64,000 nucleotides of DNA. Source: Pyrodictiaceae archaeon. GTDB lineage: Archaea; Thermoproteota; Thermoprotei_A; Sulfolobales; Pyrodictiaceae. A model generated the notes under the pieces. It ran no database searches. It saw nothing but the letters and a program-made list of their open reading frames with translations, and had not been told where the DNA came from. Location of the stretch: NCBI GenBank assembly GCA_027036135.1, contig JALVSY010000007.1:996880-1060879 (forward strand), written 5' to 3'. Position numbers and translations under genes: made by a program. Positions 2,296 through 38,075 of this stretch are shown here, in pieces (the first letter of the stretch is position 1; each line of letters starts with the position of its first letter).

Positions 2296-2312
2296 GCAAT
2301 GTTTTCTCTAAA

Positions 2313-3602
2313 TTAGAATATTTTTGTATATAATATAGTTGTTATGTATAGTATCAATGGGGTAGCGAAATTAGCGGTAAATAATCGTTTAAAGATAGTG
2401 TAACCTATGGTCATGCTTGCTATGCTGCTGCTTAGTGAAACCACTAATGAGGCATAACTGGTTGCGTTCTTGCTCATAGGTATTCCATAGAAAAGACCCA
2501 ATGGAGAAATAGTAGCTCCTAATAATGATGATATGTATCTAAACACTAAGAGAAGCACCATTATGCTTCCAGCTAGTAGGCTTAGCTGCACTATGCCACT
2601 CATTATTATTTTCCTTACAGCCTTGTATATATTATCTATAATGCTATGCATTAATCTTATTGAGAGAACGGCTTCTCTACCACTTCTCATAACTGAGACC
2701 AATGTTTCGGAAACAATAAGCATAAGTTTATCGTTCCTAGCTTCATTACGTGTTAATGGGACGCCCTTAAGTACGGAGATTATTTCTCGTGGAACCCTAG
2801 GATCTCTTGTGAGCATTCTAATTATCCCTGTATTAGCAGTTGATATCGATAGTAGCTCTGTTAATAGTCGCAGTGTGTAAAGTATGTCCTCTATCTTTTT
2901 CATCAATTTTGCTATATTCATATACGACTTTACCACTGCTATAAGTGAGACCGTGAAACCTATTGATGATATGTAGAAATTTTTTAAATAGAGCCCTATA
3001 ATAAGCAATAGTATAGATATAATGTATGAAACTGCTATTACATTACTATTACTATTTTGGAAATATATATCTAAATACTCTATTTTAGTGAATGGGATAA
3101 GAATTATTGATAATAGTGATACCAATATAAGTAATAATGAAAATGAGACAGTATTGCTAAAGCCGGCTAAGAGAACAACAATAGAGAAAAGAGATATCAA
3201 TAGTACAATTAATTCTATCCATTGAACGAGTATAGACATTTTATTTGATATGCGTTGTTTTAATTCCGCAAGGACACGTAGAGCGAACTCATCTAATGTA
3301 CCTAGGTCAATACCTTTTGATAGATATATCATAACGTATTCGTGGATTAGACGTGTAAGAAACGGCTCATTTATTAAGTCAGCTATTTTCCCTAGTACTG
3401 TTATATCATTTATATATATTTTCTCCATTTTCTTATATATTTGAGATACTTTCTTATATTCTCTTAGGTACTCTGATAAGTTATTTATTTTAGATAATAT
3501 TGTATGTGGGCTACGCTTAGCTAGAGCGTAAGGTATCGAGGATAGTATAAGTATTGGTGTTTCTGCAAGTAGTTTTTCTTTGTTAATCTTATTTATTTTC
3601 AT
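2313..3602 (-). CDS. Polytopic membrane platform protein of a type IV pilus system (TadC/ArlJ-like, divergent)
   Basis: Two clusters of TM segments separated by soluble helical regions. Lies directly downstream of, and overlaps, a secretion ATPase gene. Confidence 0.65.
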   Translation of the reverse strand: MKINKINKEKLLAETPILILSSIPYALAKRSPHTILSKINNLSEYLREYKKVSQIYKKMEKIYINDITVLGKIADLINEPFLTRLIHEYVMIYLSKGIDLGTLDEFALRVLAELKQRISNKMSILVQWIELIVLLISLFSIVVLLAGFSNTVSFSLLLILVSLLSIILIPFTKIEYLDIYFQNSNSNVIAVSYIISILLLIIGLYLKNFYISSIGFTVSLIAVVKSYMNIAKLMKKIEDILYTLRLLTELLSISTANTGIIRMLTRDPRVPREIISVLKGVPLTRNEARNDKLMLIVSETLVSVMRSGREAVLSIRLMHSIIDNIYKAVRKIIMSGIVQLSLLAGSIMVLLLVFRYISSLLGATISPLGLFYGIPMSKNATSYASLVVSLSSSIASMTIGYTIFKRLFTANFATPLILYITTILYTKIF

Positions 3603-5139
3603 TATTAATCACCTTAATTTGTTTTTCGTTATAGTATTTTCTTATAGTGTTTATAAACGTTGTATATTGACATTTTATACATTTTTCAATAATATCTTTT
3701 AATTCAATTATATCATGAATTATTTCATTTTTACTAATATATAACATTTTACTAATTGTATCTAATCTATAACTTTTGTTTACTAATTCCTCAACGGAGT
3801 CAGGAAGAAGTTTATCAACCTCCTTATTCCATTCAGCTATCTTTAGCAATTCTATTCTATCGCTAGCAGGTTTAATCTCATAGAGTTCAACCACTCTTCT
3901 CGTATATGTACCATCTTGGTTTTTTACCCGCTTGAGTACAACTATGCTCCATATGAGTTGGAGAAAGCTCTCACCAATATTTATTGGAGCTGCTTTCAAG
4001 CGCTGAATGACTGATAAGGCGCTATCGGCGTGAAATGTTGTTAATGCCCCATGCCCGCTTGCTGCTGCGTGAATCAGTGTTCTTGCTTCCTCGCCCCGAA
4101 CTTCTCCTATTACAAAGTAATCAGGTCTTCGGCGAAGGGCAAACTTTGTGAGATCAAGTAAGTTAATGCTTTCTCCGCTATTAGTTTCAGAGATTATTCT
4201 TGTAACTAGGCTGTCCCAGTTATCGTGGTATCTCAGATTTATTTCCGGCGTATCTTCTATTGTCACTACTCTATCAGTTGGAGGTATTAGCATTAGTAGT
4301 GCTTGGAGCAGAGTCGTTTTTCCCGAAGCCGTTGGTCCTGCTATGATGACGGTTGCCCTTAGTCTTAGCAGCAGCCATAGGTAAGCCATATAAAGGGATG
4401 ATATCAGCTTGTTCCTTACTAAATCGCTAGGTGTAAGGGGTTCCTCTAAATGCTTCCTAATAACTAGTGACGTTCCGAACCTAGTTATTTCGTTTGAAAA
4501 AGTAGCTGCAATACGATTCCCATCTGGTAGTGGCGCCTCAATATAAGGATGAGCTATGCTTAGCTCCTTCCCAGCTATACGGGAAAGCCTAATAACTATA
4601 TCATCAAGATCCTTGTCATCGAGGAACACGTTTGTTTTAATCCAGGTATAGTTATAGAGTCTGTGAAATATGAGTGCATAAGAACCTGGTTTATTAACCA
4701 CTATTTCCTCTATATACTCGTCCCTAGTCAGTGGATAAATTTTGCCATAACCGCTCAAAACTTTGTTTAAGAAATAGACTATCTTAGTCACATTTGATGA
4801 TAATAAGCGATAATCTAATTGATACTTTGAGCTTAGTTCTTTGAGTCTTTTAGGGTTATATATCTCGGATAAGTCTATATTTGTTGAAAAAATGATGTCT
4901 ATGAGTTTGGTTACTTCTTCGATTAATCGTTCATTCTTATCCATTTCGGGCTCGTCGATGCAATATAAGAGTTCGTCTTTATCATTTATTCCAATTGTTA
5001 CCTCAACTAGACCACTTGTTGTGTATTTCTTTAAGATTTTATTTATTTTTTCATTACATTTAGTTGCTTGGAAAACTTTTTGTACGTGTAGTTTTTCATA
5101 CATATTTGTATCCCTTCGCGGATAATGTGCCCTAGTCAT
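3589..5139 (-). CDS. Type II/IV secretion-pilus assembly ATPase (VirB11/TadA/ArlI family)
   Basis: Walker A GPTASGKTT, TIEDTPE, ALRRRPDYFVIGEVRG, His box GHGALTTFHA. Confidence 0.93.
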   Translation of the reverse strand: MTRAHYPRRDTNMYEKLHVQKVFQATKCNEKINKILKKYTTSGLVEVTIGINDKDELLYCIDEPEMDKNERLIEEVTKLIDIIFSTNIDLSEIYNPKRLKELSSKYQLDYRLLSSNVTKIVYFLNKVLSGYGKIYPLTRDEYIEEIVVNKPGSYALIFHRLYNYTWIKTNVFLDDKDLDDIVIRLSRIAGKELSIAHPYIEAPLPDGNRIAATFSNEITRFGTSLVIRKHLEEPLTPSDLVRNKLISSLYMAYLWLLLRLRATVIIAGPTASGKTTLLQALLMLIPPTDRVVTIEDTPEINLRYHDNWDSLVTRIISETNSGESINLLDLTKFALRRRPDYFVIGEVRGEEARTLIHAAASGHGALTTFHADSALSVIQRLKAAPINIGESFLQLIWSIVVLKRVKNQDGTYTRRVVELYEIKPASDRIELLKIAEWNKEVDKLLPDSVEELVNKSYRLDTISKMLYISKNEIIHDIIELKDIIEKCIKCQYTTFINTIRKYYNEKQIKVINNENK

Positions 5140-5534
5140 GCTATCTCTATCGGACTTGTTGAGAATGTCTTCCCCGTAGAGTCTTTGTAGTTAAGTACTA
5201 TGTAGATCGGTGTGCATGTCTCGTTAGTGAGGGGCAAGGATAGTGTCTTTGATTGTCCTACGCCTATAGTTGTTGTAGTGTTTATTGTCAGCTCTGTATT
5301 ATTTTTGCAAATTATGTTAGCAGATTGTATAGTTATGGTTTTTGGCCCTGAGTTATAAATTGTCACAAATATTCTTTTTATAGAGTCCATGTATTGTGCG
5401 TTATTGACGTATACCATGGGTTTTGTGGTCATGCCCTTAACTGTTCCTATGAAGTACTGATAAACTATTATTCCGGCAGCTACGGTAGCCATTATCAATA
5501 TGACTGCTGACAATATGGGAGAGAGGGCTCTCAT
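5136..5534 (-). CDS. Archaeal type IV pilin (class III signal peptide); likely start at 5534 rather than 5639
   Basis: MRA|LSPILSAVILIMATVAAGIIVY prepilin motif, followed by a small beta-rich domain with two Cys and N-x-T sequons. Confidence 0.85.
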   Translation of the reverse strand: MRALSPILSAVILIMATVAAGIIVYQYFIGTVKGMTTKPMVYVNNAQYMDSIKRIFVTIYNSGPKTITIQSANIICKNNTELTINTTTTIGVGQSKTLSLPLTNETCTPIYIVLNYKDSTGKTFSTSPIEIA

Positions 5535-5693
5535 ACTCTTTTCACCGTTATTCTTAGTTTTTATGTTAAGATGTAGAAACATAATTGATAATGATAACAT
5601 ATTTAACCTTAGAAACTGTTTCGGCAGGTTGATATCCATGTATGTTACTAGTTTTAAGGGAATAATTGCTAGAAAGGATGAGCAGGGGGCTGT

Positions 5694-17195: not shown

Positions 17196-17894
17196 TTGAT
17201 ATTAGAGATTATAACAGTTATAGTTCTAATCGTGCTTTCGCTATACGATATGAGGACACGGGAGCTTCCACGTGGCCTTGTGTATTCATCATTATTCCTT
17301 CTCCTTGTGGGCAGAATACTATATGGCATAAGCATGCCTCATAAACTTCTCTTGATCTATGCCATATTCGACTCTATCCTTCTAGCTATGATGGCGCTCA
17401 TGGCCGGGCTAGGACTCATAGGGTGGGGTGACGTAGCGGCGCTCACGATAATAACTGTCTCGTCGCCAACACCTAGTTATGCGGCACGCATAATGCCACC
17501 ACTGTTACTCGTACTCATATACTATGTGATAGTGGTTGGAATCATAATGGTTTTCACAGCAATATATAATGTAATATTCCATAAAGAGGCATTATCAGAA
17601 CTACCTGGTCGCTACAAGGTAATATATCTCTTTATAGCTAGGCCTATGAAGGTTCAAGAAATACTCAAAAAGCCTGGATGGTGGTATCCATTAAACCTTT
17701 GCGGGGAATACAAGATATCATTCAATATATACCTAGATCCACCCGATATAGTAAAACAAGTGAAGCAAGCATTAAACAAGGGCTGTATAAAAAAAGACTC
17801 AATAATATGGGTGACCTATGGCTTGCCGGGTCTGCCAATAATAACACTTGCCTATATTCTTGCATTAACAATTGGAGATAAACCCTTTATATAG
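17196..17894 (+). CDS. Prepilin/prearchaellin peptidase (A24, PibD/FlaK-like)
   Basis: SLYDMRTRE (first Asp), IGWGD (GxGD), multiple TM helices, C-terminal IWVTYGLP. Confidence 0.85.
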   Translation: MILEIITVIVLIVLSLYDMRTRELPRGLVYSSLFLLLVGRILYGISMPHKLLLIYAIFDSILLAMMALMAGLGLIGWGDVAALTIITVSSPTPSYAARIMPPLLLVLIYYVIVVGIIMVFTAIYNVIFHKEALSELPGRYKVIYLFIARPMKVQEILKKPGWWYPLNLCGEYKISFNIYLDPPDIVKQVKQALNKGCIKKDSIIWVTYGLPGLPIITLAYILALTIGDKPFI

Positions 17895-28518: not shown

Positions 28519-28815
28519 GTGCACTATATCTACATGACTGTGCTCTCTCGTAGAGGTGGTGTCTCCGTGGGGGAAGAAAAAGTACTAGCTTATCTCCTAA
28601 TAGTCGCAGAGGTTGGTAAAGAGTACGAAATTATCGAGAAAATAAAGGATATAGCTCGTAATGTAGGGGTTGAAGCAGAACCCAGTGTAGTCTATGGTGA
28701 GTATGATATAGTAGTGCGTATAATATCGGATAGTCTTAGAAAGATAGATAAAGCTGTAACAATGATAAGATCCTTGCCCGGTATACTAAGGACTATAACC
28801 CTTATAGCTGCCTAG
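28519..28815 (+). CDS. Lrp/AsnC ligand-binding (RAM) domain protein; true start probably ~28567
   Basis: AYLLI..EVGKE, VYGEYDIVV, IRSLPGILRTITLI. Confidence 0.85.
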   Translation: MHYIYMTVLSRRGGVSVGEEKVLAYLLIVAEVGKEYEIIEKIKDIARNVGVEAEPSVVYGEYDIVVRIISDSLRKIDKAVTMIRSLPGILRTITLIAA

Positions 28816-29306
28816 TCAGCACTTATATTAATAACTAGTATATCTCCTTCCTCTTTCATCTCGACACCGTATGCCTTTGCAACGCCTTTTACAAGGTCCT
28901 TAATAGCCCTATCAGTTTTATTAGACACCATTACTATTATCTTGTCCTTCTCCTGTATGGCTGTCTTTAGGTTCTCTAGGAACAGCTCAATAGCTTCCTC
29001 TAGGCGCACTCCTAGATTCTTAAGCAGGATACCGATGCGCTCCCCTTCTCGCTCTAGGTCGTTCTCGTCTAGATTGCATTCACTAACTATATCTGCTGGT
29101 ATAAGTAAGAGTCCTGCTCCACGTAGCTTCGAGAGTAGTAGCGCTTTTCGTAGCGCTAGGGGCGCGAATAATCCTCGATTCTCAGCCTCGATGAGGTTTG
29201 TTAAGAGGCTACGCATGTAGGCAGCGAGGGTCATTCCATGTTTGTTAGCTATGTTCTTTACGGCATCGACTAATTCAGCGTCCAACATCATTGGCTTCCT
29301 ACGCAT
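28812..29306 (-). CDS. Ribbon-helix-helix protein with C-terminal alpha/beta domain
   Basis: RKPMMLDAELVDAVKNIANKHGMTLAAYMRSLL RHH pattern. Confidence 0.7.
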   Translation of the reverse strand: MRRKPMMLDAELVDAVKNIANKHGMTLAAYMRSLLTNLIEAENRGLFAPLALRKALLLSKLRGAGLLLIPADIVSECNLDENDLEREGERIGILLKNLGVRLEEAIELFLENLKTAIQEKDKIIVMVSNKTDRAIKDLVKGVAKAYGVEMKEEGDILVINISAD

Positions 29307-29402: not shown

Positions 29403-29996
29403 TTAGGGTTCTTCTTCCCTCTTTTTCTTATCCCTGTACTCGATGATTACGATTGAGCCTAGTTTCTCGCTTGATAGTACCTGGTATCCCATTTCTTCTA
29501 TGATTGTTGATGCTATATCCCTTACATAGCTCGCCAATAGTTCCGAAGAATTACGTTGGCTCAGTGATATTATGAGGCGTTTCTCGCCATTTGTGTCATC
29601 AACTGTGTCTATTGTGGAGAAGGGGGTAAAGAGGGAAATGATATCCTTTGGCTCAAGGCCTTCAACGCCGTGTGCTTTCAGATAAACTGTTGCAGTACGA
29701 GCAAATTCTCGGACATGGTTTATGAACCGTGTCCTAGCCTCGTCGCTGCTCCCCTCAAGTAGTGCTAGCAATGCATCGCTAGGGATTACTACGGCGCCTA
29801 GCCTTTTGGTATCGGCTAGCATCACGCTATCACGGAATATAGTTGTTATATTGTCTCTGCCCTGAAGCATGCGGGCAGCATGTGCCAGCATAAGGCTGGC
29901 AAGCTCTGATATAGTAAGCCCTGTGCGCTTAGCGATCCCCATTAGGTCGCGTAGAACAGTCTCTGGGACCACTATGAGCTTCTTGGGCCCCTTCAT
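29403..29996 (-). CDS. Ribbon-helix-helix protein, paralogue of the adjacent gene
   Basis: KKLIVVPETVLRDLMGIAKRTGLTISELASLML; shares a G-hydrophobic-IP-x-D motif (GAVVIPSD vs GLLLIPAD). Confidence 0.7.
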   Translation of the reverse strand: MKGPKKLIVVPETVLRDLMGIAKRTGLTISELASLMLAHAARMLQGRDNITTIFRDSVMLADTKRLGAVVIPSDALLALLEGSSDEARTRFINHVREFARTATVYLKAHGVEGLEPKDIISLFTPFSTIDTVDDTNGEKRLIISLSQRNSSELLASYVRDIASTIIEEMGYQVLSSEKLGSIVIIEYRDKKKREEEP

Positions 29997-30161: not shown

Positions 30162-32153
30162 CTACTTGATTATTAATGCACTTTGTCCTATCTGTGCTAC
30201 TCTCTCAAGTATGGTTGTGGCTGAGACACAATCTGTTAAGCTAGCCTTGGTGATTCCGGTCGTGTATATATCGTTGGTATTAATTATTTTAACGCTGGTA
30301 CTAGGTGGCATCAATACCTTACAGCCTTGGCACACAACAGAAAGTGGTGAGGCGCTGAACACTTCAACATACTCGCCTGTATAATCTGGTTCTTGGAACT
30401 CTATCTTAGCTGATAATGAGCTTGGCAGATATAATTCCGAGACATTATAGGCGGTGGATTCGTAACTTTCTATTCCTTCGCCGGGTAACAGCAATAGCCA
30501 TGAGCCTTGCGGGACACGAGTATTTGTTGGCAGTATTGACAAGTGTATATAATCATCAATGCCACTGATAAAAGCTACACCAGTATTGCAGAAGAGACTA
30601 TCCCCTACATCATCAGTGTTGTTCGTTGTATCAACTATTAGCCTAGAGCCCTTACCCACTAATACGAGTTCTATTGCAAGTATAGCGTTGTTGGATAGAA
30701 GTCCTGCCTTATTAAAAAGCTTTCCCGGATCTATGCTTATTATGCCACTTAGTGCCTCGTTACTAGTGATTTTTGTTAAGTTTAATAATGTAGTCTTATA
30801 TACGGCCTTGATAACTTGATTAGACTTTGTAAGCTGTACTATCTGCATATCTACTGGGAGTCCAAGCCTCCACTCCGATAATGGAACAAGGTAGGCATAG
30901 ATAGCGATGTACTGAGGCGAGCTTCTATATGCTCCGTAAGTCTTAACAGTATATCCGCTCAATGGAGTATAATAAAATTCCCAAGAGAGCTTTCCTTGTG
31001 CATTGTACTGTACTGGTAGTACTCCATAGCTAAGTGTAATGGGTGCTGAGTCTCTACTAATAAGGAGTGGTATTAGTAATATATCAATGCTTCTGCTATA
31101 AAGACTTGATATAGACTTCTTTGTGCACACAGTAAAGCTATATCCATCACTAAGTCTTGTAGCTTTCTCCACTACTCTTGCATAGAAGAATGGAGGCGAC
31201 ATATTAGCCTCAACGAGCCAAGTGTACCGCCAGCCCCAGCCAGAGTACTCGCCAGCAGAATCGCCATATAACTGGATATGCAGGGGCAGTACAACCCTAT
31301 AATCCCTTATATGTAGCCATCCAGGCCGCTCAGCTACTAAGCTAGCATACTCGTACTCGAGATGCATAGCTACACGAGTAGCATTCTCGGGTAGTGGTGT
31401 ATGGTAAGAGTTGTCCCGGTATAAGCAACCAATCCCGGGCCTGCAGTAGATAGGGTATGATACATCAACTGTAAGATTGTTATCATACAGAGTGGCGCTA
31501 GCTGATACCCGTGACGGGATAAAACGGTACACATAGCTATTAGACCTGCCCAGAACTACATAATTGGTCTCGTTAATAACAAGGCCAGGTACTACACCAT
31601 ACTCGTTCAACAAGCTTAACGCATCATTGCTTACAAGAATACCGCGTATCCACAAAGGCTGTAACATAGATGAATAAGTATCCATGTTGCCTATATTATT
31701 CTTACATCCCTTAAGCAACGCTGACGCATTAACGATGTATCCGCTAAGACAATGCATATTTGGGTCAAGCTCGTATCTATAGATCCAGAACCCACCATTA
31801 CTACTATTCACGGTAATTACTACGTCCTCGTTGCAAGGTATATTGATATATACAGAGCCATTATCACTGCTGTAAGCTCCTACAACCCGGCCAGACAAAT
31901 CATAAACAATTACGTCAAATCGCCCCAACCCATTATCGTTAATCTTAAGCTCTGCAGCCAAGAACCCATCATTACAAGTATTGCTCAACGGTCCCAATTC
32001 CATAGTAGGCGGCATGGCCATTAGCGCCCTTGAAGTAATAATGTGTATACCGCCGTATACGGCGCGAGAAATGAGAATAGAAGCAGCTGCCGCCAGGGAA
32101 ACAATCATAGCAATCACAAAGATAGCTGCAACTAAGTTCTCTAGTCCACGCAT
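30162..32153 (-). CDS. Large secreted protein with class III (pilin-like) signal peptide
   Basis: MRG|LENLVAAIFVIAMIVSLAAAASIL N-terminus; beta-rich, rich in Tyr/Ser/Cys, with N-glycosylation sequons. Confidence 0.7.
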   Translation of the reverse strand: MRGLENLVAAIFVIAMIVSLAAAASILISRAVYGGIHIITSRALMAMPPTMELGPLSNTCNDGFLAAELKINDNGLGRFDVIVYDLSGRVVGAYSSDNGSVYINIPCNEDVVITVNSSNGGFWIYRYELDPNMHCLSGYIVNASALLKGCKNNIGNMDTYSSMLQPLWIRGILVSNDALSLLNEYGVVPGLVINETNYVVLGRSNSYVYRFIPSRVSASATLYDNNLTVDVSYPIYCRPGIGCLYRDNSYHTPLPENATRVAMHLEYEYASLVAERPGWLHIRDYRVVLPLHIQLYGDSAGEYSGWGWRYTWLVEANMSPPFFYARVVEKATRLSDGYSFTVCTKKSISSLYSRSIDILLIPLLISRDSAPITLSYGVLPVQYNAQGKLSWEFYYTPLSGYTVKTYGAYRSSPQYIAIYAYLVPLSEWRLGLPVDMQIVQLTKSNQVIKAVYKTTLLNLTKITSNEALSGIISIDPGKLFNKAGLLSNNAILAIELVLVGKGSRLIVDTTNNTDDVGDSLFCNTGVAFISGIDDYIHLSILPTNTRVPQGSWLLLLPGEGIESYESTAYNVSELYLPSSLSAKIEFQEPDYTGEYVEVFSASPLSVVCQGCKVLMPPSTSVKIINTNDIYTTGITKASLTDCVSATTILERVAQIGQSALIIK

Positions 32154-32338
32154 GGGTACCCTAGGTATCTTCCTGTATCAGATGCAGCGGCGTGGAGGGG
32201 CCGGGCCGTAACTAAGCAGTAACACTGTATGCAAATGTATACACTTGTTACCGCATACCCCAAAAACCCTCCACAACAACCTACCACTACCACACGGCCT
32301 AGAGAAAAGGTAGACTCTAAGCGCAGGGTGAACCACGT

Positions 32339-35300
32339 ATGAGATCCAGGCTACTAAACACGCTCATAATAGCAATCTTCCTCCTCTCCATAGCAGCACC
32401 ACTAGTACCAATAATGACCACACCTATAACAAAGATAGCTAAGGCACAAGCAGCACCAACAATATGGGCTAATGCGACAAAAGTAACATGCAACACGACA
32501 GTAAAGGTAGTAGTAACAGTACCAGGAGCCACGGCGAGCACCGTAAAGGTCAATGTAACTGTTAATGGCGCTCCTAATACAGTTACACTCGAGAGAAATG
32601 GTACCACAGACCAGTATGTTGGCTACCTATATATAAAACCGATCCAACCGGAATGTGGTGCTGCAGAAGTAGTATACATATCGCTAGGCGGGTATACTTC
32701 ATACGCTCTCTCGGGCACGCTTAACAGCAATGGGCAAACAATAGTAATAAGCATGAAGGGTGCAGAGAACACGTGGACCATCTACTTCTATAACAAGGCG
32801 AAACTAGTAATTGAGGGACGCGAATACCCGCCAAATAGCGGAGTATATTGGATACCAAGAATCTGCAACTGTACAATAGGTAGCATAAATCCATACTATG
32901 CCTATAACCCCTGGGAGTGGTACATAATAGCGCCATTTGCTACGCCTGGAAAACAATACAATGTATCAATAAATATAACTAATATCGTCAATAACGAGCC
33001 GGTAGCAAGCATAACTGCAGTATTCAATGCAACAACAAAAGGCGGCATAACAGTACTAATCCCGGCGAACAAGACTGAGGCAATGAAGATAAACTACCTA
33101 CTCCTAGAGGCCAGTAACAAGACTACACCTTGGTACATAATGGGCAACAACTTTGATGACGTCATAAGCCAGGGAGACCTTCTACAAGTAACAGCCACAA
33201 TATATAACGCGACAAGTTCATCAAAGAGTATTACGACAAAGAGCATACAACTAAGAATATTCGTAAGTATAGCGAAAATATATACCGAGCCAGCAACACT
33301 AAGCCTAAACAACCCAGAATTCACAATATACGTAGCCGATGCTGACGCCAACTTCAACTCAACATACGCAGAGACATACCCATTCAATCTAACAATAGGA
33401 GGGATACAGGTAAAGCTAAAAGAAACTGGACCCGACACCGGCCTCTTTGCCGCACAGCTAAACTTATTAACAAAAGGCCTCTATCCACAAGGCTTCAACG
33501 AGACGAACAATAAGTTATACTGGAACCTAACAGAAATAAGGATAGACAAGCCAAGAAAAGTAGTAACATGCCTAAGAAGCGGCTACTTCACAATACAATA
33601 CCACTATGGTATAGTAAAGACAGCGCAGGCATCAGTAATACTAAGACAAGCAGTGCACTGCTGCCCGGTTCTCGAACTAACATTAGAAACCAATGATACG
33701 GACCTATTGCTAGGATATCCATCAACAGTACCGGTAGCAGCAACAATGATAACGCCTGGTACCCCATTGATAAATGTTACAGCGAATTATACAGAATACT
33801 ATTCATCAACCAATACTATAGAGCAGACAAAAGTACCAGCACTAATGATCTCGTTGTATCTAGTGGGAGTAAACGAGACCAATGGGACAAAGGCAATACC
33901 TCTAACAGCAACCGCTAACTTTACACTAGCATTCTACCAGACAAGCAGCAATACAATCACGGCACAGATACCACTAAGCCTGATTAACTGGGCGCAAGCA
34001 AATAAGAACCTAACAGAGAGCGGATATAACCCCAAGTGCATCGAAGTAGTATACTATGATCTCTTCAACCCGAGCCTGCAAGTACAAAAACACATAGTGT
34101 GTGTGAAGGTGCAACATGTAAGTATGAGCTTGGATCGCTATATATTACCAGTAATAGCTAGGACATTGAATGCAACCAATCACTACACTAATATATCTGG
34201 GTCACAGTATCAAGTAGTACATATAAAAATCTATGATGAGGGTATGAACAAGAACTGCTGCCAAGTAGACAATATTAGTGCTTCTAACATCAAATTAATA
34301 CTAACAAAGTATGATAAAGTAATAGGTAAAAGTATCGTACTGAACGAATCTTATGGTGAGATAACACTGCCTCTCAAGGAAAGACTGAGCAACGGCTCTA
34401 TAATCACTGTTGGAAAATGTTATATGGAGGTAACGAACTTTACTGAGACCGGGCCAAATACAGGAGTATTTACCGGCGAACTCAGAATATACTCAATTGT
34501 TAATATAAGCGGTAAGACCTACTGGTTCCCAGGGTGCCCATCACCATGGCTAAATGGCGCCACGTTAACCCTTAAGTACATAAGTGGAGCTGTAGGATAC
34601 GCAGAGAAAACAATTAAGTTCAAAGTAGATGACGCTATGCTAAAAGTATCATCCACGAGCGTATACTTTGGGAAGAACCTAACAATAATAGTAAATGACC
34701 CAGACGCTAACCTGGATAATAGCGTGAACGAAACCATACCGGTAATTATAGAAGCTTATTGTCCGGTAAGCGGGGAGCTTAAACAATACACGGTGTCTCT
34801 AAAGTCTGTTGCCGCGAATAGTAGCATATTTGAGGCCACGATACCAGTCACTAAACCATATGTACCAGGCCCTTGTACCCAGCTAATTATTCGCTACATA
34901 GACCCAACACCATATAATCCGATGTCATTAAGCCTAGCGCAGCAGTTATTTGAACAAGCATACGCAGAGAACGGCTCCGTCCATTGGTTGCTGTACTATA
35001 GTAGCCCATACACCCCATCCAATTCATTGGCGACAAACTTTGCTCCGTCCTCAGATGCGGTCCACGAAGTAACCATTAATGTGGTGCCTATGAAAGGCAA
35101 GGTTGAGGTATTCTACGAGTTGCCGCCGTTTATAAATAACTGGATAAATGTTACCAACAAGGTTATACCGGCATCTAACTACACATTAATTAACATAACG
35201 GTAATCGATAGCGACCAGAACAAAAACGCTATGGAAATAGACACGATATCGCCAAGCTATATATCAATAACCTTTAACGGGACAACGGTGTCTCTACCGT

Positions 35301-36397
35301 CACAGTATGTGTTAATAGAGACTGGGCCAGACACTGGAGTATTTACAACAACCTTGTCGCTTGGCGACATATTATCGATGTTGGGACTTAATAGTCCACT
35401 AGAGCTAGCAGGGAAAACTATAACTATAACATATCATGACCCGTCAGCGTCATGTCAGACTGGAATATGCGGTGGAACTGGTACAGCAACGGCATCAGTA
35501 GCACTGAAAGTGATAGATGTAACTGGTAACCTTTCAGTAATTAATGCGGTTACTGGTAAGCCTCAGAACAGCTTTAACTGTTATTGCATGAGGACCCATA
35601 AGCCAGGCAACATAATAACTATTAGCGTTGCTGATCTGGATCTCCTACCATACAGTATGCCATACAGCGGGTTAAGCCAAGTAAATCTTAGCAAGTTTAT
35701 CAGCATATATAATGTAAGAGGTACGAGCATGTCTCCAGCTGCTAATAGCATAACATTTAGATACGCTGGAACATACAATGTAACAGTAGATGGCGTACCA
35801 ATACCTGTAGCGGTCTTTAACGCCACTAACATACAGCTACTTTGTAGCAGTTTTGAGACGACGAGTGTGAGTGGAAACTATATTGTAGCACCACCATTCA
35901 CTACGTTGAAGATAGTATACCATGACCCGGCCAGCAGCAATGGTATGCCTGTAAACGTGAGCAAGTCATTTAGCATAGGTATAGCGACAATAACTAAGCC
36001 CGAGGAGACAGCTAGTATTAATACGTCAAAGACAGCAGTAGTAGTCTACAGAAATGGTACATTCGTACAAACGACGCTAGTGGTACAAGGTGAGCCGGTA
36101 ACAATAGAGGCACCGATAACCTATAACCCGCTGGCAGCCTCGATGTTCGCTGGCAAGACCTTCGATGTAGTGTATCTAATCACTGATAACACCGGACACG
36201 TCTATGCCTTCGGCTACGTGCCTGTAAGCGTATCGCAGAGCGGTTACGTAGTAGTACCATTGCAGATTAGTAGCTTAGTAACAAAGAGCTTAGCGCCAGG
36301 GACATATAAGGTAGTAATTTATGCTGTCAACAACTTAGTGAATTTGGTATCGCTATCAAAGCCCGTTGAAGTAACAATAACGGTACAAGCGGCATAA
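32339..36397 (+). CDS. Putative major S-layer glycoprotein (SlaA-like, Ig-domain repeats)
   Basis: Sec signal ending AKAQA; repeated D-x-D-x-N / ETGP[DN]TG[LV]F / Y-x-DP modules; many N-x-S/T sequons; about 20 Cys; no C-terminal TM. Confidence 0.8.
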   Translation: MRSRLLNTLIIAIFLLSIAAPLVPIMTTPITKIAKAQAAPTIWANATKVTCNTTVKVVVTVPGATASTVKVNVTVNGAPNTVTLERNGTTDQYVGYLYIKPIQPECGAAEVVYISLGGYTSYALSGTLNSNGQTIVISMKGAENTWTIYFYNKAKLVIEGREYPPNSGVYWIPRICNCTIGSINPYYAYNPWEWYIIAPFATPGKQYNVSINITNIVNNEPVASITAVFNATTKGGITVLIPANKTEAMKINYLLLEASNKTTPWYIMGNNFDDVISQGDLLQVTATIYNATSSSKSITTKSIQLRIFVSIAKIYTEPATLSLNNPEFTIYVADADANFNSTYAETYPFNLTIGGIQVKLKETGPDTGLFAAQLNLLTKGLYPQGFNETNNKLYWNLTEIRIDKPRKVVTCLRSGYFTIQYHYGIVKTAQASVILRQAVHCCPVLELTLETNDTDLLLGYPSTVPVAATMITPGTPLINVTANYTEYYSSTNTIEQTKVPALMISLYLVGVNETNGTKAIPLTATANFTLAFYQTSSNTITAQIPLSLINWAQANKNLTESGYNPKCIEVVYYDLFNPSLQVQKHIVCVKVQHVSMSLDRYILPVIARTLNATNHYTNISGSQYQVVHIKIYDEGMNKNCCQVDNISASNIKLILTKYDKVIGKSIVLNESYGEITLPLKERLSNGSIITVGKCYMEVTNFTETGPNTGVFTGELRIYSIVNISGKTYWFPGCPSPWLNGATLTLKYISGAVGYAEKTIKFKVDDAMLKVSSTSVYFGKNLTIIVNDPDANLDNSVNETIPVIIEAYCPVSGELKQYTVSLKSVAANSSIFEATIPVTKPYVPGPCTQLIIRYIDPTPYNPMSLSLAQQLFEQAYAENGSVHWLLYYSSPYTPSNSLATNFAPSSDAVHEVTINVVPMKGKVEVFYELPPFINNWINVTNKVIPASNYTLINITVIDSDQNKNAMEIDTISPSYISITFNGTTVSLPSQYVLIETGPDTGVFTTTLSLGDILSMLGLNSPLELAGKTITITYHDPSASCQTGICGGTGTATASVALKVIDVTGNLSVINAVTGKPQNSFNCYCMRTHKPGNIITISVADLDLLPYSMPYSGLSQVNLSKFISIYNVRGTSMSPAANSITFRYAGTYNVTVDGVPIPVAVFNATNIQLLCSSFETTSVSGNYIVAPPFTTLKIVYHDPASSNGMPVNVSKSFSIGIATITKPEETASINTSKTAVVVYRNGTFVQTTLVVQGEPVTIEAPITYNPLAASMFAGKTFDVVYLITDNTGHVYAFGYVPVSVSQSGYVVVPLQISSLVTKSLAPGTYKVVIYAVNNLVNLVSLSKPVEVTITVQAA

Positions 36398-36440
36398 ATA
36401 CATGATAGCTAAGTGGATGAGAAGGTTAAAACCCCTAATG

Positions 36441-36446
36441 TTTTTT
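36441..36446 (+). terminator. Oligo-T terminator candidate after the S-layer gene
   Basis: TTTTTT 44 nt after the stop codon, in an AT-rich tract. Confidence 0.45.
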
Positions 36447-36482
36447 ACTTATTTATCGTATTCTGTTATAAGCTATAGATAG

Positions 36483-36525
36483 AATGTTCGAACATTACAT
36501 ATATGTAGCTCTCAACGCTTAAATA
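36483..36525 (+). promoter_or_regulatory. Two abutting palindromes plus a TATA-like element upstream of the stalk gene
   Basis: AATGTTCGAACATT (36483-36496), TACATATATGTA (36496-36507), CTTAAATA (36518-36525). Confidence 0.45.
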
Positions 36526-36578
36526 CGTGCTCCAAAGAAAAATCCCCTTGATGGTGTATAATTGGAGGGTGTAGGTAA

Positions 36579-37937
36579 ATGAGAAAGATAATAACTCCAA
36601 TAGCTGCCCTACTAGTGATAACAGTGCTAGCACTAAGTATAGCTAGTTACGCTGCCTCAGTAACCTATAGCGGCGTGACCCTTAGTACTAATAAGAACAA
36701 GTACCTACCCGGTGAAACAGTAACAATAACTGTTAGCTTCGAGAAACCATTCACGGGGTCTGTATATCTATACATCTATAAGCCAGGAGGAATTCTAGAT
36801 TTCTTCAAGTATGTAAGTCTAACGAATGAAACAACTTACACGGTGACTTACAAGCCACAAGAACTGGGTGTCTATACGGTCAAGGCAAGCGTTCAAGGTA
36901 GCTTTGCAGGAGAGAATCGGACAATAGTGATACCAGTTAGTGCCTTATCAGTAACATTTACTGTGGCGGCGCAATATGCGATTAAAGGCCGAGTAGTTGA
37001 TGAAAACGGTAATCCGGTTCCTGGGGCAACGGTTATGATTAAAGAAGCAGGGCTAAAGACAACTACTGATAGTAATGGTTACTTTGTTATATCGGTAGCG
37101 AAGCCAGGTACATACACGCTATGTGCTTGTAAGGAGGGCTACTTACCAAGTATGGCTACTGTCCAAGTGACCCAGATGGGTATAACAGAGCTAAGTAAGC
37201 CAATAGTCATAGAGAGCTTCACTCATGCGATACTAAGACTACAAAACAATATACAGCAACTAGATAATAAGTTAGCAGAACTAAATATGACACTAAGCAA
37301 TGCTATAAAGACACAGGTAAGTAACCTGCGAACAGAGCTAACAAATAGCCTAAATCAGTTAAGCAATGATGTTAACAAGAAGATAAACAATCTAACACAG
37401 AGAGTAACGGGTCTAGAGAATACAGTAGCCGGTATAAGTGATGCATTAAAGCAGCTAAGCACTAGCATACAATCGCTACAGACAAGTATACAGAATCTAC
37501 AGGCGCAACTAAGTAATGTACAGCAGCAGTTACAAGGAAAGGCTGATAAAGCTGCACTACAACAGCTAGCAACTATGTTAAACAATATGAATACTAAGAT
37601 AAGCAATATGGATAAAACGTTATCGACTCTGCAGACAACGGTAACCCAGTTGCAAGGCGTCGTCAAAGACCTCAAGACGACTGTTGGGGGACTAAAGACA
37701 ACGGTTAGTAGTTTGCAGACGAGTGTATCCGACTTAAAGTCAACTATGAATAATGTACAGAACAAGCTTAATACTGTAGCGAGCCAGGCGAACAGCGCTG
37801 CGCAGCAGGCTAGCAAGGCTACAAAGAAGGCCGATGACGCTGCATCGAAGGCGATGCTCGGCATAGTGATAGGCATAATTGGCCTCATAATAGCAATTAT
37901 AGCTGTTATACTAGTTTATCGGAAAATAGCTGTCTAA
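36579..37937 (+). CDS. Putative S-layer stalk/anchor protein (SlaB-like)
   Basis: Signal peptide; two beta-sandwich domains (the second carboxypeptidase-regulatory-like, GRVVDENGNPVPGATV); ~200-aa heptad coiled coil; C-terminal TM plus RK tail. Confidence 0.82.
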   Translation: MRKIITPIAALLVITVLALSIASYAASVTYSGVTLSTNKNKYLPGETVTITVSFEKPFTGSVYLYIYKPGGILDFFKYVSLTNETTYTVTYKPQELGVYTVKASVQGSFAGENRTIVIPVSALSVTFTVAAQYAIKGRVVDENGNPVPGATVMIKEAGLKTTTDSNGYFVISVAKPGTYTLCACKEGYLPSMATVQVTQMGITELSKPIVIESFTHAILRLQNNIQQLDNKLAELNMTLSNAIKTQVSNLRTELTNSLNQLSNDVNKKINNLTQRVTGLENTVAGISDALKQLSTSIQSLQTSIQNLQAQLSNVQQQLQGKADKAALQQLATMLNNMNTKISNMDKTLSTLQTTVTQLQGVVKDLKTTVGGLKTTVSSLQTSVSDLKSTMNNVQNKLNTVASQANSAAQQASKATKKADDAASKAMLGIVIGIIGLIIAIIAVILVYRKIAV

Positions 37938-38075
37938 GCTACGCATAGCCCCTTAGTTTTTTAACCGTATACGGCTTTTTAATAATACATTATTATTCTT
38001 ACCTATTAGGTATCTCCCTTATTATTCTACTTTAAACTCTTATCGTTTTTATCCCCTAGGTACGCGTTTCCTAAA

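What the first reader, a model, noticed from the sequence alone, without database searches (positions are those of the whole stretch)
32339..37937. Hybrid cell envelope: thaumarchaeal-type Ig-repeat S-layer protein paired with a Sulfolobus-style coiled-coil stalk
Seen: the 1352-aa protein repeats a module with D-x-D-x-N, ETGP[DN]TG[LV]F (near 33422, 34445 and 35318, plus a degenerate SVAANSSIF) and Y-x-DP. It ends with LAPGTYKVVIYAVNNLVNLVSLSKPVEVTITV and has no TM anchor. The next gene has a signal peptide, two beta-sandwiches, ~200 aa of heptads and a TM anchor. Knowledge, from memory: the ETG-x-x-TG-x-F repeats and that C-terminal pattern resemble the Nitrosopumilus S-layer protein family, while the second architecture matches Sulfolobales SlaB. 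Inference: a two-component S-layer whose cap is of the Ig-array type rather than the Sulfolobus SlaA type. Such an envelope appears little characterised in this lineage.
Basis: partly seen in the sequence, partly recalled or inferred. Interest (0 to 1): 0.75.

Follow-up and report, generated by a model that had tools for sequence, protein, structure and literature searches.

The report
Pyrodictiaceae two-gene S-layer operon
Two neighbouring genes of a hydrothermal-vent archaeon most likely encode its protein cell coat, a large sugar-coated canopy protein and a membrane-anchored stalk, and this pairing is already listed in print for its relative Hyperthermus butylicus.

Summary
A 1352-aa secreted protein without a membrane anchor (32339-36397) is followed by a 452-aa protein with a signal peptide, two beta-sandwiches, a coiled coil and a C-terminal TM helix (36579-37937).

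The stalk is a SlaB homologue. The large protein is an array of about ten Ig-like domains. It is homologous by profile to a ~1100-aa family that includes a protein from a Nitrososphaerota-labelled MAG, and that family matches the Nitrosopumilus maritimus S-layer protein. In a Foldseek search of the C-terminal model, that protein is the best hit. So the 'thaumarchaeal-type' reading holds.

The 'hybrid' framing does not. Von Kügelgen et al. 2024 state that most Nitrososphaerota encode a SlaB homologue beside the main S-layer protein. Their Supplementary Table 1 lists Hyperthermus butylicus SlaA and SlaB. The window's cap is 34% identical end to end to a protein whose start is identical to the sequence they print as H. 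butylicus A2BLH8.

The gene pair is adjacent in all 4 related genomes checked, and both genes evolve much faster than the next gene.

New here:
- A modelled contact between the cap's last domain and the stalk's first domain (score 0.81, best control 0.45).
- A cap with no net charge, unlike 13 relatives.

Verdict: a new member of a known kind, of modest interest.

The parts
32326..32331 (+). GGGTGA, a Shine-Dalgarno-like motif 7 nt upstream of the cap start codon
   Evidence: Read by eye. Inference only.
32339..36397 (+). Cap / lattice protein gene (SlaA analogue), 1352 aa. It has a Sec-type signal peptide, about ten Ig-like beta-sandwich domains and no TM anchor.
   Evidence: ORF. 7 full-length homologues at 34-63% identity. 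44 N-x-S/T sequons against 18.7 expected. Models with pLDDT 86 and 91.7. NmSLP is the top Foldseek hit of the C-terminal model.
32339..32449 (+). Signal peptide region, residues 1-37, ending at the conserved A-x-A-Q
   Evidence: Hydrophobic window at residues 5-10. M1, L5, I11, L16, A34 and A36 are invariant. The cleavage site is inferred by eye.
32450..34114 (+). N-terminal five or so beta-sandwich domains (residues 38-592), including module A with DADAN (334) and ETGPDTGLF (362)
   Evidence: Model m222120fdf543, pLDDT 91.7, pTM 0.77. Foldseek finds Ig/MG-domain arrays, with NmSLP at ranks 8-9 and the highest listed TMq, 0.37. Domain borders were read from the secondary-structure string and are approximate.
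34118..35440 (+). Modules B, C and D (residues 594-762, 767-854, 908-1034). They carry ETGPNTGVF (703), DPDAN (787), SVAANSSIF, YIDP (853), DSDQN (957), ETGPDTGVF (994) and YHDP (1032).
   Evidence: BLASTP aligns these modules with the repeats of L008 and P0008. 13 of the 14 distant module hits I scanned match the repeat region of NCBIfam NF052345, the Kustd1514 S-layer glycoprotein.
35486..35926 (+). Domain E (residues 1050-1196), a degenerate module ending in YHDP (1194)
35951..36388 (+). C-terminal beta-sandwich (residues 1205-1350) holding the conserved PGTY...L..LS...T.TV motif. It is the predicted stalk-docking domain.
   Evidence: VIA gives Z 13.2, rmsd 2.1 A, 117 residues aligned to the Wzt carbohydrate-binding domain 8dky_A. 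Interface residues 1219-1222, 1280-1291 and 1326-1342 come from complex prediction (score 0.81, best control 0.45). P1320, G1321, T1322, Y1323, L1333, L1339 and S1340 are invariant.
36441..36446 (+). T6 run 44 nt after the cap stop codon, a candidate partial archaeal terminator
   Evidence: Read by eye. Inference only.
36519..36525 (+). TTAAATA, a candidate TATA box for a stalk-specific promoter
   Evidence: Read by eye. Inference only.
36564..36571 (+). GGAGGGTG, a Shine-Dalgarno-like motif 7 nt upstream of the stalk start codon
   Evidence: Read by eye. Inference only.
36579..37937 (+). Stalk / anchor protein gene (SlaB homologue), 452 aa
   Evidence: phmmer to 8qox_B (S. acidocaldarius SlaB chain), E 3.1e-14 over residues 313-450. 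NF040788 SlaB, E 6.3e-17, below the curated cut-off. 29% identity, E 2e-22 to the L008 stalk, whose N-terminus matches NF040788 at E 8.7e-31.
36651..36968 (+). Stalk domain 1 (residues 25-130), an Ig-like beta-sandwich and the predicted contact with the cap
   Evidence: Interface residues 61-65, 73-78, 102-107 and 114-121. Conserved K39, Y42, P44 and G97.
36981..37181 (+). Stalk domain 2 (residues 135-201), a CarboxypepD_reg-like beta-sandwich
   Evidence: Pfam PF13620, E 3.5e-16.
37191..37844 (+). Coiled-coil region, about residues 205-422
   Evidence: Many coiled-coil Pfam and NCBIfam models match here.
37854..37919 (+). C-terminal TM helix (residues 426-447), followed by RKIAV
   Evidence: Kyte-Doolittle maximum of 3.32. 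The I433, I434, G435 ... YRKIA pattern is conserved in homologues.
37957..37962 (+). T6 run 20 nt after the stalk stop codon, a candidate terminator of the operon
   Evidence: Read by eye. Inference only.

Best explanation

The 1352-aa protein is exported by the Sec pathway and probably heavily N-glycosylated. It folds into about ten Ig-like beta-sandwich domains, which self-assemble into the outer lattice (canopy). It has no anchor of its own.

The 452-aa SlaB homologue sits in the membrane through its C-terminal helix. By analogy with Sulfolobus SlaB it forms a coiled-coil stalk about 200 residues long and presents two N-terminal beta-sandwiches to the canopy.

The cap's last domain (residues 1205-1350, with the conserved PGTY...LS...TITV motif) docks on the stalk's first domain.

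What is shown: the gene structure, the homologies, the fold similarities and the conserved adjacency.

What is inferred: lattice formation, glycosylation, oligomeric state, the docking contact and higher expression of the cap than the stalk.
For: (1) Stalk homology to SlaB.

(2) Cap homology to an S-layer family.
- The profile of the cap family against the ~1100-aa family A5 gives hhalign probability 100, E 2.2e-72, over 1055 columns from end to end.
- A profile of A5 matches one PDB sequence only, the N. maritimus S-layer protein 8c8k_A, at E 4e-76.
- The L008 protein alone matches it at E 1.4e-25.

(3) Fold.
- Foldseek ranks 1-4 for cap residues 585-1352 are NmSLP entries (E 2.9e-19 to 9.9e-15). 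Rank 5 is the Haloferax volcanii S-layer protein.
- VIA gives Z 12.7 (210 residues aligned, rmsd 3.6) and Z 11.7 (461 residues aligned) to NmSLP.

(4) Orthology to a pair already named SlaA/SlaB. P0012 (1368 aa) has the same N-terminal sequence as that printed for UniProt A2BLH8 of H. butylicus in the source data of PMC11153153. It is 34% identical to the cap over the whole length. Supplementary Table 1 of that paper lists H. butylicus SlaA and SlaB.

(5) Conserved operon. Cap and stalk are adjacent on the same strand in 4 of 4 family genomes checked and in the loci L002, L004 and L005. A cap-like gene and a SlaB-like gene are also adjacent in the Nitrososphaerota-labelled MAG locus L008.

(6) Surface-glycoprotein signature.
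- 44 sequons against 18.7 expected.
- This is the highest sequon density among the 114 ORFs of 600 aa or more in the genome.
- 14 invariant cysteines.

(7) Fast evolution, as expected of exposed envelope proteins. In the same-genus genome G066 the neighbouring CoA-ligase gene is 91% identical, the stalk 50% and the cap 35-40%.

(8) Docking. Complex prediction with cap residues 1050-1352 and stalk residues 25-215 scored 0.81, against a best control of 0.45.
- That mark was reached by 116 of 157 solved complexes and 2 of 215 mismatched pairs.
- The runs agree in at least 97% of their contacts, and the partner's pLDDT is at least 88.
- The topology (C-terminal cap domain against N-terminal stalk domain) is the one proposed for S. 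acidocaldarius SlaA D6 and SlaB (PMC10903991, passages).

(9) The cap gene is single-copy in the genome.
Against: - No expression, proteomic or imaging data exist for this organism.
- The SlaB match to the solved chain lies in the coiled-coil and TM part, which is compositionally biased. The NCBIfam score of 61.6 bits is far below the cut-off of 700, although that model is an equivalog built for another group.
- The cap has no direct sequence match to any solved structure: one search gave only a chance-level hit, and one search gave none at E up to 10. The link to NmSLP is therefore transitive, or rests on fold.
- Ig-like arrays match many unrelated proteins, such as complement C3 and alpha-2-macroglobulin at E 1e-12 to 1e-9.
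- In the complex test, the control that kept the stalk and replaced the cap still scored 0.45, so the stalk head is somewhat 'sticky'. My own alignments were used, so the calibration holds only roughly. A SlaA-SlaB assembly is in the PDB (8QOX), so likeness to it cannot be excluded as a source of the pass.
- The genome encodes other large secreted, sequon-rich proteins with C-terminal TM helices: L015 (1296 aa) and L016 (1118 aa). Either could contribute to, or dominate, the envelope.
- For N. maritimus, the authors report that SlaB is far less abundant than the lattice protein, and they doubt stoichiometric anchoring.
Confidence: 0.85

Rival explanations
1. The 1352-aa protein is a secreted or surface-attached Ig-array adhesin or accessory envelope protein that hangs on the SlaB-like stalk. 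The real lattice is built by another protein of the genome, for example one of the large TM-anchored glycoproteins.
For: - Other large candidates exist: L015 (1296 aa, NEW3/CARDB domains, C-terminal hydrophobic segment) and L016 (1118 aa, CarboxypepD_reg domain, C-terminal hydrophobic segment).
- Single-polypeptide, TM-anchored Ig-rich S-layer proteins are described in other Thermoproteota (bioRxiv 10.64898/2026.08.21.746120, abstract and section 7).
- The same repeat module occurs in giant proteins of 6000-7800 aa with 28-34 matched stretches, which look more like adhesins.
Against: - The cap family is homologous end to end with relatives of a lattice protein whose structure has been solved.
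- It always sits beside the stalk gene.
- It is single-copy.
- It has the top sequon density in the genome.
- L015 has no match among solved structures.
- I did not test L015 or L016 any further.
Confidence: 0.1
2. The cap forms the lattice but is not held by protein-protein docking on the stalk. Instead its C-terminal domain, which has the fold of a carbohydrate-binding module, binds glycans on the stalk, on other envelope proteins or on membrane glycolipids. The SlaB homologue would then be a minor, sub-stoichiometric helper.
For: - The best VIA match of the whole C-terminal model is the Wzt carbohydrate-binding domain: 8dky_A, Z 13.2, rmsd 2.1 A, 117 residues aligned, covering cap residues 1220-1352.
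[quoted passage not shown] They report SlaB as much less abundant than the lattice protein.
Against: - A shared beta-sandwich fold shows no function. Sequence identity to the Wzt domain is 14%.
- The complex model places the same domain on the stalk head with a score of 0.81 against 0.45 for the best control.
- The stalk has only 4 sequons.
Confidence: 0.15

Closest known systems
Hyperthermus butylicus SlaA / SlaB (UniProt A2BLH8 / A2BLH9), listed in Supplementary Table 1 and the source data of von Kügelgen et al. 2024 (PMC11153153)
   Same: - Same family (Pyrodictiaceae, by the record titles), same gene order and same architecture.
- P0012, whose N-terminus is identical to the printed A2BLH8 sequence, aligns with the cap over the whole length at 34% identity.
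- The printed start of A2BLH9 resembles the stalk by eye. In G056, a one-contig family genome that holds a 1370-aa cap frame, the stalk match is 30% identical. I did not identify G056 as H. butylicus.
   Different: - Only 30-37% identity.
- The window's cap has no net charge, while P0012 carries -84 (K+R minus D+E).
- The window's stalk carries +15. The paper's table gives -23.3 for H. butylicus SlaB.
- The window's cap has 44 sequons against 22 in P0012.
- In my searches, neither pair has been characterised beyond annotation and 1990s electron microscopy.
Nitrosopumilus maritimus S-layer protein NmSLP (Nmar_1547; PDB 8C8K/L/M/O/R) with its SlaB homologue
   Same: - A secreted array of Ig-like domains without a TM anchor, encoded in a genome that also holds a SlaB homologue.
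- Top Foldseek match of the C-terminal model.
- It shares the D-x-D-x-N ... ETG-x-x-TG-x-F module and the C-terminal domain, through the intermediate family A5.
   Different: - There is no direct sequence match between the cap family and NmSLP.
- NmSLP has 1734 residues and a net charge near -212 with a charge gradient, which the authors tie to ammonium capture. The window's cap is neutral.
- Hexagonal lattice symmetry could not be tested here.
Sulfolobus acidocaldarius SlaA / SlaB (PDB 7ZCX, 8QOX)
   Same: - A two-gene operon with the lattice gene first and the stalk gene second.
- The stalk has N-terminal Ig-like domains, a coiled coil and a C-terminal TM helix.
- The proposed contact is between the C-terminal domain of the lattice protein and the N-terminal domain of the stalk.
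- The stalk matches 8qox_B at E 3.1e-14.
- The cap is near-neutral, as the paper's table reports for Sulfolobales SlaA (-3.4 to -16.5).
   Different: - There is no detectable sequence similarity between the cap family and SlaA.
- VIA gives Z 9.1, at rank 47, below NmSLP.
- SlaA domains are described as having a more complex topology than Ig-like folds.
- S. acidocaldarius SlaB has three Ig-like domains. This stalk has two.
Kustd1514 family S-layer glycoprotein of anammox bacteria (NCBIfam NF052345)
   Same: The repeat module is shared. 13 of the 14 distant module-bearing proteins I scanned match positions of about 975-1365 of this model, at E 1.5e-25 to 2e-118. So does the L008 cap-like protein, at E 1.9e-35.
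   Different: - The window's cap itself does not reach E 0.1 against this model.
- Kustd1514 is bacterial and, as far as I recall, has no SlaB-type partner. I did not check this.

Membership tests
SlaB (S-layer stalk/anchor protein of Thermoproteota) | Signal peptide, N-terminal beta-sandwich (Ig-like) domains, a long coiled coil and a single C-terminal TM helix | tested here: met
   Hydrophobic windows lie at residues 3-11 and 421-434. PF13620 matches residues 135-201. Coiled-coil models match about residues 205-422. The head, residues 25-215, folds with pLDDT 88.
SlaB (S-layer stalk/anchor protein of Thermoproteota) | Sequence homology to characterised SlaB | tested here: met
   - 8qox_B at E 3.1e-14, in the coiled-coil/TM part only.
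- NF040788 at E 6.3e-17 but 61.6 bits, against a cut-off of 700 for that equivalog.
- The head is linked through the L008 stalk: 29% identity, E 2e-22, and the L008 stalk's N-terminus matches NF040788 at E 8.7e-31.
- So it is a member of the wider SlaB family, not of the Metallosphaera-type equivalog.
SlaB (S-layer stalk/anchor protein of Thermoproteota) | Encoded directly downstream of the lattice-protein gene | tested here: met
   A 181-nt gap on the same strand. The arrangement is conserved in 4 of 4 family genomes and in L002, L004 and L005.
SlaB (S-layer stalk/anchor protein of Thermoproteota) | Forms trimers that tie the lattice to the membrane | not testable with these tools
   Only a 1:1 head-to-cap model was run. 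The oligomeric state was not modelled.
Ig-array S-layer proteins of the NmSLP / Desulfurococcales 'SlaA' kind | A secreted tandem array of Ig-like domains without a membrane anchor | tested here: met
   Both models are almost entirely beta-sandwich. There is no hydrophobic segment beyond the signal peptide.
Ig-array S-layer proteins of the NmSLP / Desulfurococcales 'SlaA' kind | Homology to a lattice protein of known structure | tested here: met
   The sequence link is transitive, because the direct search found nothing. By fold the link is direct: NmSLP at Foldseek ranks 1-4 and VIA Z 11.7-12.7.
Ig-array S-layer proteins of the NmSLP / Desulfurococcales 'SlaA' kind | Orthology to the H. butylicus protein listed as SlaA | tested here: met
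   34% identity over 1429 alignment columns to P0012, E 0. The start of P0012 is identical to the printed A2BLH8 sequence.
Ig-array S-layer proteins of the NmSLP / Desulfurococcales 'SlaA' kind | Strong negative charge or charge gradient (the feature tied to cation sieving in ammonia oxidisers) | tested here: not met
   Net charge is -1.1 at pH 7.4, and no gradient appears along 100-residue blocks. The 13 relatives carry -31 to -108. This is a feature of the ammonia-oxidiser function rather than of the fold family.
Ig-array S-layer proteins of the NmSLP / Desulfurococcales 'SlaA' kind | Assembles into a two-dimensional lattice and is the dominant envelope protein | not testable with these tools
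   This needs proteomics and cryo-ET.
Sulfolobales SlaA | Sequence homology to SlaA | tested here: not met
   The profile of 7 cap homologues matched nothing in the PDB sequence set at E up to 10. That set includes the sequence of 7ZCX.
Sulfolobales SlaA | SlaA-like fold | tested here: inconclusive
   7zcx_AAA gives VIA Z 9.1, rmsd 5.8 A, 334 residues aligned, at rank 47. It is not among the 50 listed Foldseek rows.

The most novel reading that the evidence does not exclude
The conserved C-terminal beta-sandwich of this protein family has a Wzt-CBD-like fold and ends in PGTY...LS...TITV. It is shared with the ~1100-aa family and with the C-terminus of NmSLP. The novel reading is that this domain is the general SlaB-docking module of Ig-array S-layers across Thermoproteota and Nitrososphaerota.

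That would answer how the Nitrosopumilus-type canopy is tied to the membrane. The published structure leaves this open, because the tenth domain is unresolved.

A second reading concerns this lineage alone. It has swapped the usual acidic canopy for an uncharged, more heavily glycosylated one on a basic stalk, which would be a different way of setting surface electrostatics.
Probability: 0.35. Interest if true: 0.5.

Novelty: new member of a known kind. Interest (0 to 1): 0.25.

Why it matters
S-layers of Pyrodictiaceae have been imaged since the late 1980s, but my searches found no biochemical or structural assignment of their proteins.

This locus gives confident models (pLDDT 86-92) of both components. 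It also gives a specific, testable contact between them.

Together with the published tables, it adds to the view that a lattice protein plus a SlaB-type stalk is a widespread plan of the Thermoproteota and Nitrososphaerota, not a peculiarity of the Sulfolobales.

It does not reveal a new kind of envelope.

Tried and rejected
- Direct sequence search of the cap against Pfam, NCBIfam and PDB sequences found nothing significant.
- PF28202 is recorded for the distant relatives P0008 and P0009. It is not in the local Pfam copy, so I never saw its name.
No source names or accessions could therefore be obtained for the homologues.
- No RNA holder was listed for the locus, so nothing can be said about expression.
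- The contigs laid from four hydrothermal-vent runs show related strains, for example a 3673-nt contig over 32384-36054 with 365 differing letters. I drew no conclusion from depth or cover.
- I considered whether the lower G+C of window 1-38 kb (0.33-0.46, against 0.48-0.54 to the right) marks an island that carries the operon. The genes there are housekeeping genes (topoisomerase VI, ThrRS, RadA, GlmS, Lhr helicase), so I dropped the idea.
- SlaA is not among the 50 listed Foldseek rows for either model. That is not evidence that the folds differ.
- Atlas look-up of the upstream 663-aa protein gave only scores under 0.8.

Full report
**Observation**

One runs 32339..36397 on the + strand (1352 aa) and the other 36579..37937 on the + strand (452 aa).

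The quoted motifs are at the stated places:
- ETGPDTGLF at residue 362 (nt 33422), ETGPNTGVF at 703 (nt 34445) and ETGPDTGVF at 994 (nt 35318).
- D-x-D-x-N at residues 334, 787 and 957.
- Y-x-DP at residues 853, 1032 and 1194.

From the composition, my own arithmetic expects about 5e-5 chance matches to ETG..TG.F in a protein of this length. The motif residues are also invariant columns among seven homologues.

The cap has one hydrophobic segment only, the signal peptide. The stalk has two, a signal peptide and a C-terminal TM helix. The stalk also carries a CarboxypepD_reg-like beta-sandwich at residues 135-201 and matches a crowd of coiled-coil models over about residues 205-422.

**What the stalk is**

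- It matches the S. acidocaldarius SlaB chain of entry 8QOX at E 3.1e-14. That match lies in the coiled-coil and TM part.
- It matches the NCBIfam SlaB model NF040788 at E 6.3e-17, far below that equivalog's cut-off.
- The head domains are tied to SlaB through an intermediate. The 303-aa protein of locus L008 is 29% identical to the stalk (E 2e-22), and its N-terminus matches NF040788 at E 8.7e-31.
- Homologues at 80-94% identity exist in metagenomes.

I file it as a member of the wider SlaB family.

**What the cap is**

It has no Pfam, NCBIfam or direct PDB sequence match.

The word-based search found seven full-length relatives at 34-63% identity and two distant ones. A profile search of 1.84 billion representatives, with cap residues 315-1352, found 419 proteins at E up to 0.001. 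About ten of these are full-length family members. The rest are proteins of 250-7800 aa matched in several stretches, that is, by the repeat module.

I scanned fourteen of those distant hits, and thirteen match the repeat region of the Kustd1514 S-layer glycoprotein model. Genome records place the full-length family in Pyrodictiaceae, Hyperthermus and Desulfurococcales MAGs.

The link to a solved S-layer protein runs through a family of about 1100 aa (alignment A5). It includes the L008 protein from a MAG labelled Nitrososphaerota.
- A5 aligns with the cap family from end to end: hhalign probability 100, E 2.2e-72, 1055 columns.
- A profile of A5 matches exactly one PDB sequence, the N. maritimus S-layer protein, at E 4e-76. 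The strongest stretch is at the two C-termini.

**Structure**

- Residues 38-595 fold with mean pLDDT 91.7 and pTM 0.77.
- Residues 585-1352 fold with mean pLDDT 86.0 and pTM 0.60.
- Both are strings of beta-sandwich domains. I count about ten from the secondary-structure strings, so the borders are approximate.

For the C-terminal model, Foldseek ranks 1-4 are N. maritimus S-layer entries (E 2.9e-19 to 9.9e-15). Rank 5 is the H. volcanii S-layer protein. After that come complement C3 and alpha-2-macroglobulin arrays.

VIA-align on the same model gives:
- NmSLP: Z 12.7 (210 residues aligned, rmsd 3.6 A) and Z 11.7 (461 residues aligned).
- S. acidocaldarius SlaA: Z 9.1 (334 residues aligned, rmsd 5.8 A), at rank 47.
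- The last domain (cap 1220-1352): best match is the Wzt carbohydrate-binding domain, Z 13.2, rmsd 2.1 A.

For the N-terminal model the hits are generic Ig/MG arrays. NmSLP is at ranks 8-9 and has the highest listed TMq, 0.37.

**The literature decides the novelty question**

Von Kügelgen et al. 2024 (PMC11153153; I read passages, a figure legend and passages of two supplementary files):
- They state that the N. maritimus genome encodes a SlaB homologue.
- The legend of Extended Data Fig. [quoted passage not shown]
- Under 'Thermoproteota (order Desulfurococcales)', Supplementary Table 1 lists H. butylicus SlaA (WP_011822157.1) and SlaB (ABM80840.1), and Ignisphaera aggregans SlaA and SlaB.
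- The source data print the start of UniProt A2BLH8 of H. butylicus. That start is identical to the start of P0012 (1368 aa).
- P0012 aligns with the window's cap over its whole length at 34% identity.

Gambelli et al. [quoted passage not shown] They also propose that the N-terminal Ig-like domain of SlaB faces the C-terminal D6 domain of SlaA.

A 2026 preprint (10.64898/2026.08.21.746120; abstract, section 7 and passages) treats these systems as related Ig-rich S-layers of Thermoproteota.

So an Ig-array canopy on a SlaB-type stalk is not a hybrid. It is a published, widespread arrangement, and this window holds another member of it. My searches found no experimental work on the Pyrodictiaceae proteins beyond the electron microscopy of 1988-1991 cited in the review PMC5744192 (passages).

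**Context and evolution**

- The cap is single-copy in a 2.2-Mb genome that is 99.6% complete.
- In the order, 19 of 121 genomes searched (G000 included) match the cap profile at E up to 1e-5. Full-length matches occur in 5 of the 15 genomes of the family, G000 included. Other genomes match only in modules inside large open frames.
- Cap and stalk are adjacent on one strand in all 4 family genomes examined and in L002, L004 and L005.
- In the same-genus genome G066 the downstream CoA-ligase gene is 91% identical, the stalk 50% and the cap 35-40%. Both envelope genes therefore evolve far faster than their neighbour.
- All 14 family members are enriched in N-x-S/T sequons. The window's cap has 44 against 18.7 expected. 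That is the highest density among the 114 ORFs of 600 aa or more in the genome.
- Fourteen cysteines are invariant among seven homologues, including two adjacent pairs at 441/442 and 640/641.

**Mechanism**

By eye I see the following. All of these signals are inference.
- A T6 run 44 nt after the cap stop codon.
- A TTAAATA box about 55 nt upstream of the stalk start codon.
- GGGTGA and GGAGGGTG motifs 7 nt upstream of the two start codons.
- A T6 run after the stalk gene.

This fits the Sulfolobales pattern, a strongly expressed lattice gene with read-through or separate lower expression of the stalk, as described in the review.

A complex model of cap residues 1050-1352 with stalk residues 25-215 scored 0.81, against a best control of 0.45.
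- That mark was reached by 116 of 157 solved complexes and 2 of 215 mismatched pairs.
- The runs agree in at least 97% of their contacts, and the partner's pLDDT is at least 88.
- The contact joins cap residues 1219-1222, 1280-1291 and 1326-1342 to stalk residues 61-65, 73-78, 102-107 and 114-121. In other words, the conserved C-terminal motif of the cap meets the first domain of the stalk.

This supports binding but does not show it. The calibration holds only roughly because my own alignments were used. The control that kept the stalk still scored 0.45. A SlaA-SlaB assembly has been solved, so a pass by likeness cannot be excluded.

**What is particular to this copy**

- The cap has equal numbers of acidic and basic residues (84 each) and a net charge of -1.1 at pH 7.4. 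The 13 relatives carry -31 to -108.
- The stalk carries +15. Its closest relatives carry +7 to +10 and more distant ones -6 to -23.
- The cation-sieving role proposed for the highly acidic NmSLP therefore cannot simply be transferred to this protein.

**Rivals**

Another large TM-anchored glycoprotein of the genome (L015 or L016) could be the main lattice protein. Alternatively, the cap's last domain could anchor through glycans rather than through the stalk. This is suggested only by its Wzt-like fold and by the published doubt about stoichiometric SlaB anchoring in N. maritimus. Neither rival is excluded without proteomics and binding tests.

**Verdict**

The S-layer reading and the kinship with thaumarchaeal S-layer proteins are supported. 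The 'hybrid' claim is not. This is a new member of a known kind. The added value is two confident models, a testable docking interface and an unusual uncharged variant.

Noticed in passing
window 30162-32153 (- strand): A 663-aa ORF, transcribed divergently from the cap gene, has no Pfam or NCBIfam match. Its N-terminus (MRGLENLVAAIFVIAMIV...) looks by eye like an archaeal class III (type IV pilin-like) signal peptide. The Atlas look-up gave only weak leads: scores of 0.79 or less, and a Pilin_N family on 14% of one cluster at rank 9. No ORF of similar size lies upstream of the cap in L005. A prepilin-peptidase-like gene lies at 17196-17894.
   Followed up: partly
window 2313-5639 (- strand): A T2SSE-type secretion ATPase (3589-5139) is flanked by a 429-aa and a 167-aa ORF without Pfam matches. 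The stretch 2001-4000 has only 0.33 G+C, against 0.40-0.54 in the other 2-kb windows. This may be a type IV pilus or archaellum-like assembly locus.
   Followed up: no
window 1-38000 versus 38001-64000: G+C is 0.33-0.46 on the left and 0.48-0.54 on the right, and the step falls at the end of the S-layer operon. The genes on the left are housekeeping genes (topoisomerase VI A and B, ThrRS, RadA, GlmS, Lhr-type helicase), so this is not an obvious island. It remains unexplained.
   Followed up: partly
window 28812-29306 and 29403-29996 (- strand): Two ORFs of 164 and 197 aa have weak ribbon-helix-helix / CopG-like N-termini (E 0.01-0.03). They lie just upstream of the 663-aa gene. ORFs of similar size (169 and 193 aa) lie upstream of the cap in L005. 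I did not compare them.
   Followed up: no
G000:C30:133575-137465 (L015) and G000:C7:334734-338090 (L016): Two further large secreted proteins are sequon-rich and have C-terminal hydrophobic segments. L015 is 1296 aa with NEW3 and CARDB-like domains and 27 sequons. L016 is 1118 aa with a CarboxypepD_reg domain near its C-terminus and 21 sequons. They are possible further envelope components.
   Followed up: partly
P0018, P0019, P0021 (proteins): Giant proteins of 6140-7799 aa carry 28-34 matched stretches of the same D-x-D-x-N / ETG-x-x-TG-x-F module. Their source and function are unknown, because the library gives no names.
   Followed up: no
G066:C1:297524-298951: In the same-genus genome, the orthologue of the CoA-ligase gene next to the operon (91% identity) is read through one in-frame TAG. 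I did not examine it.
   Followed up: no
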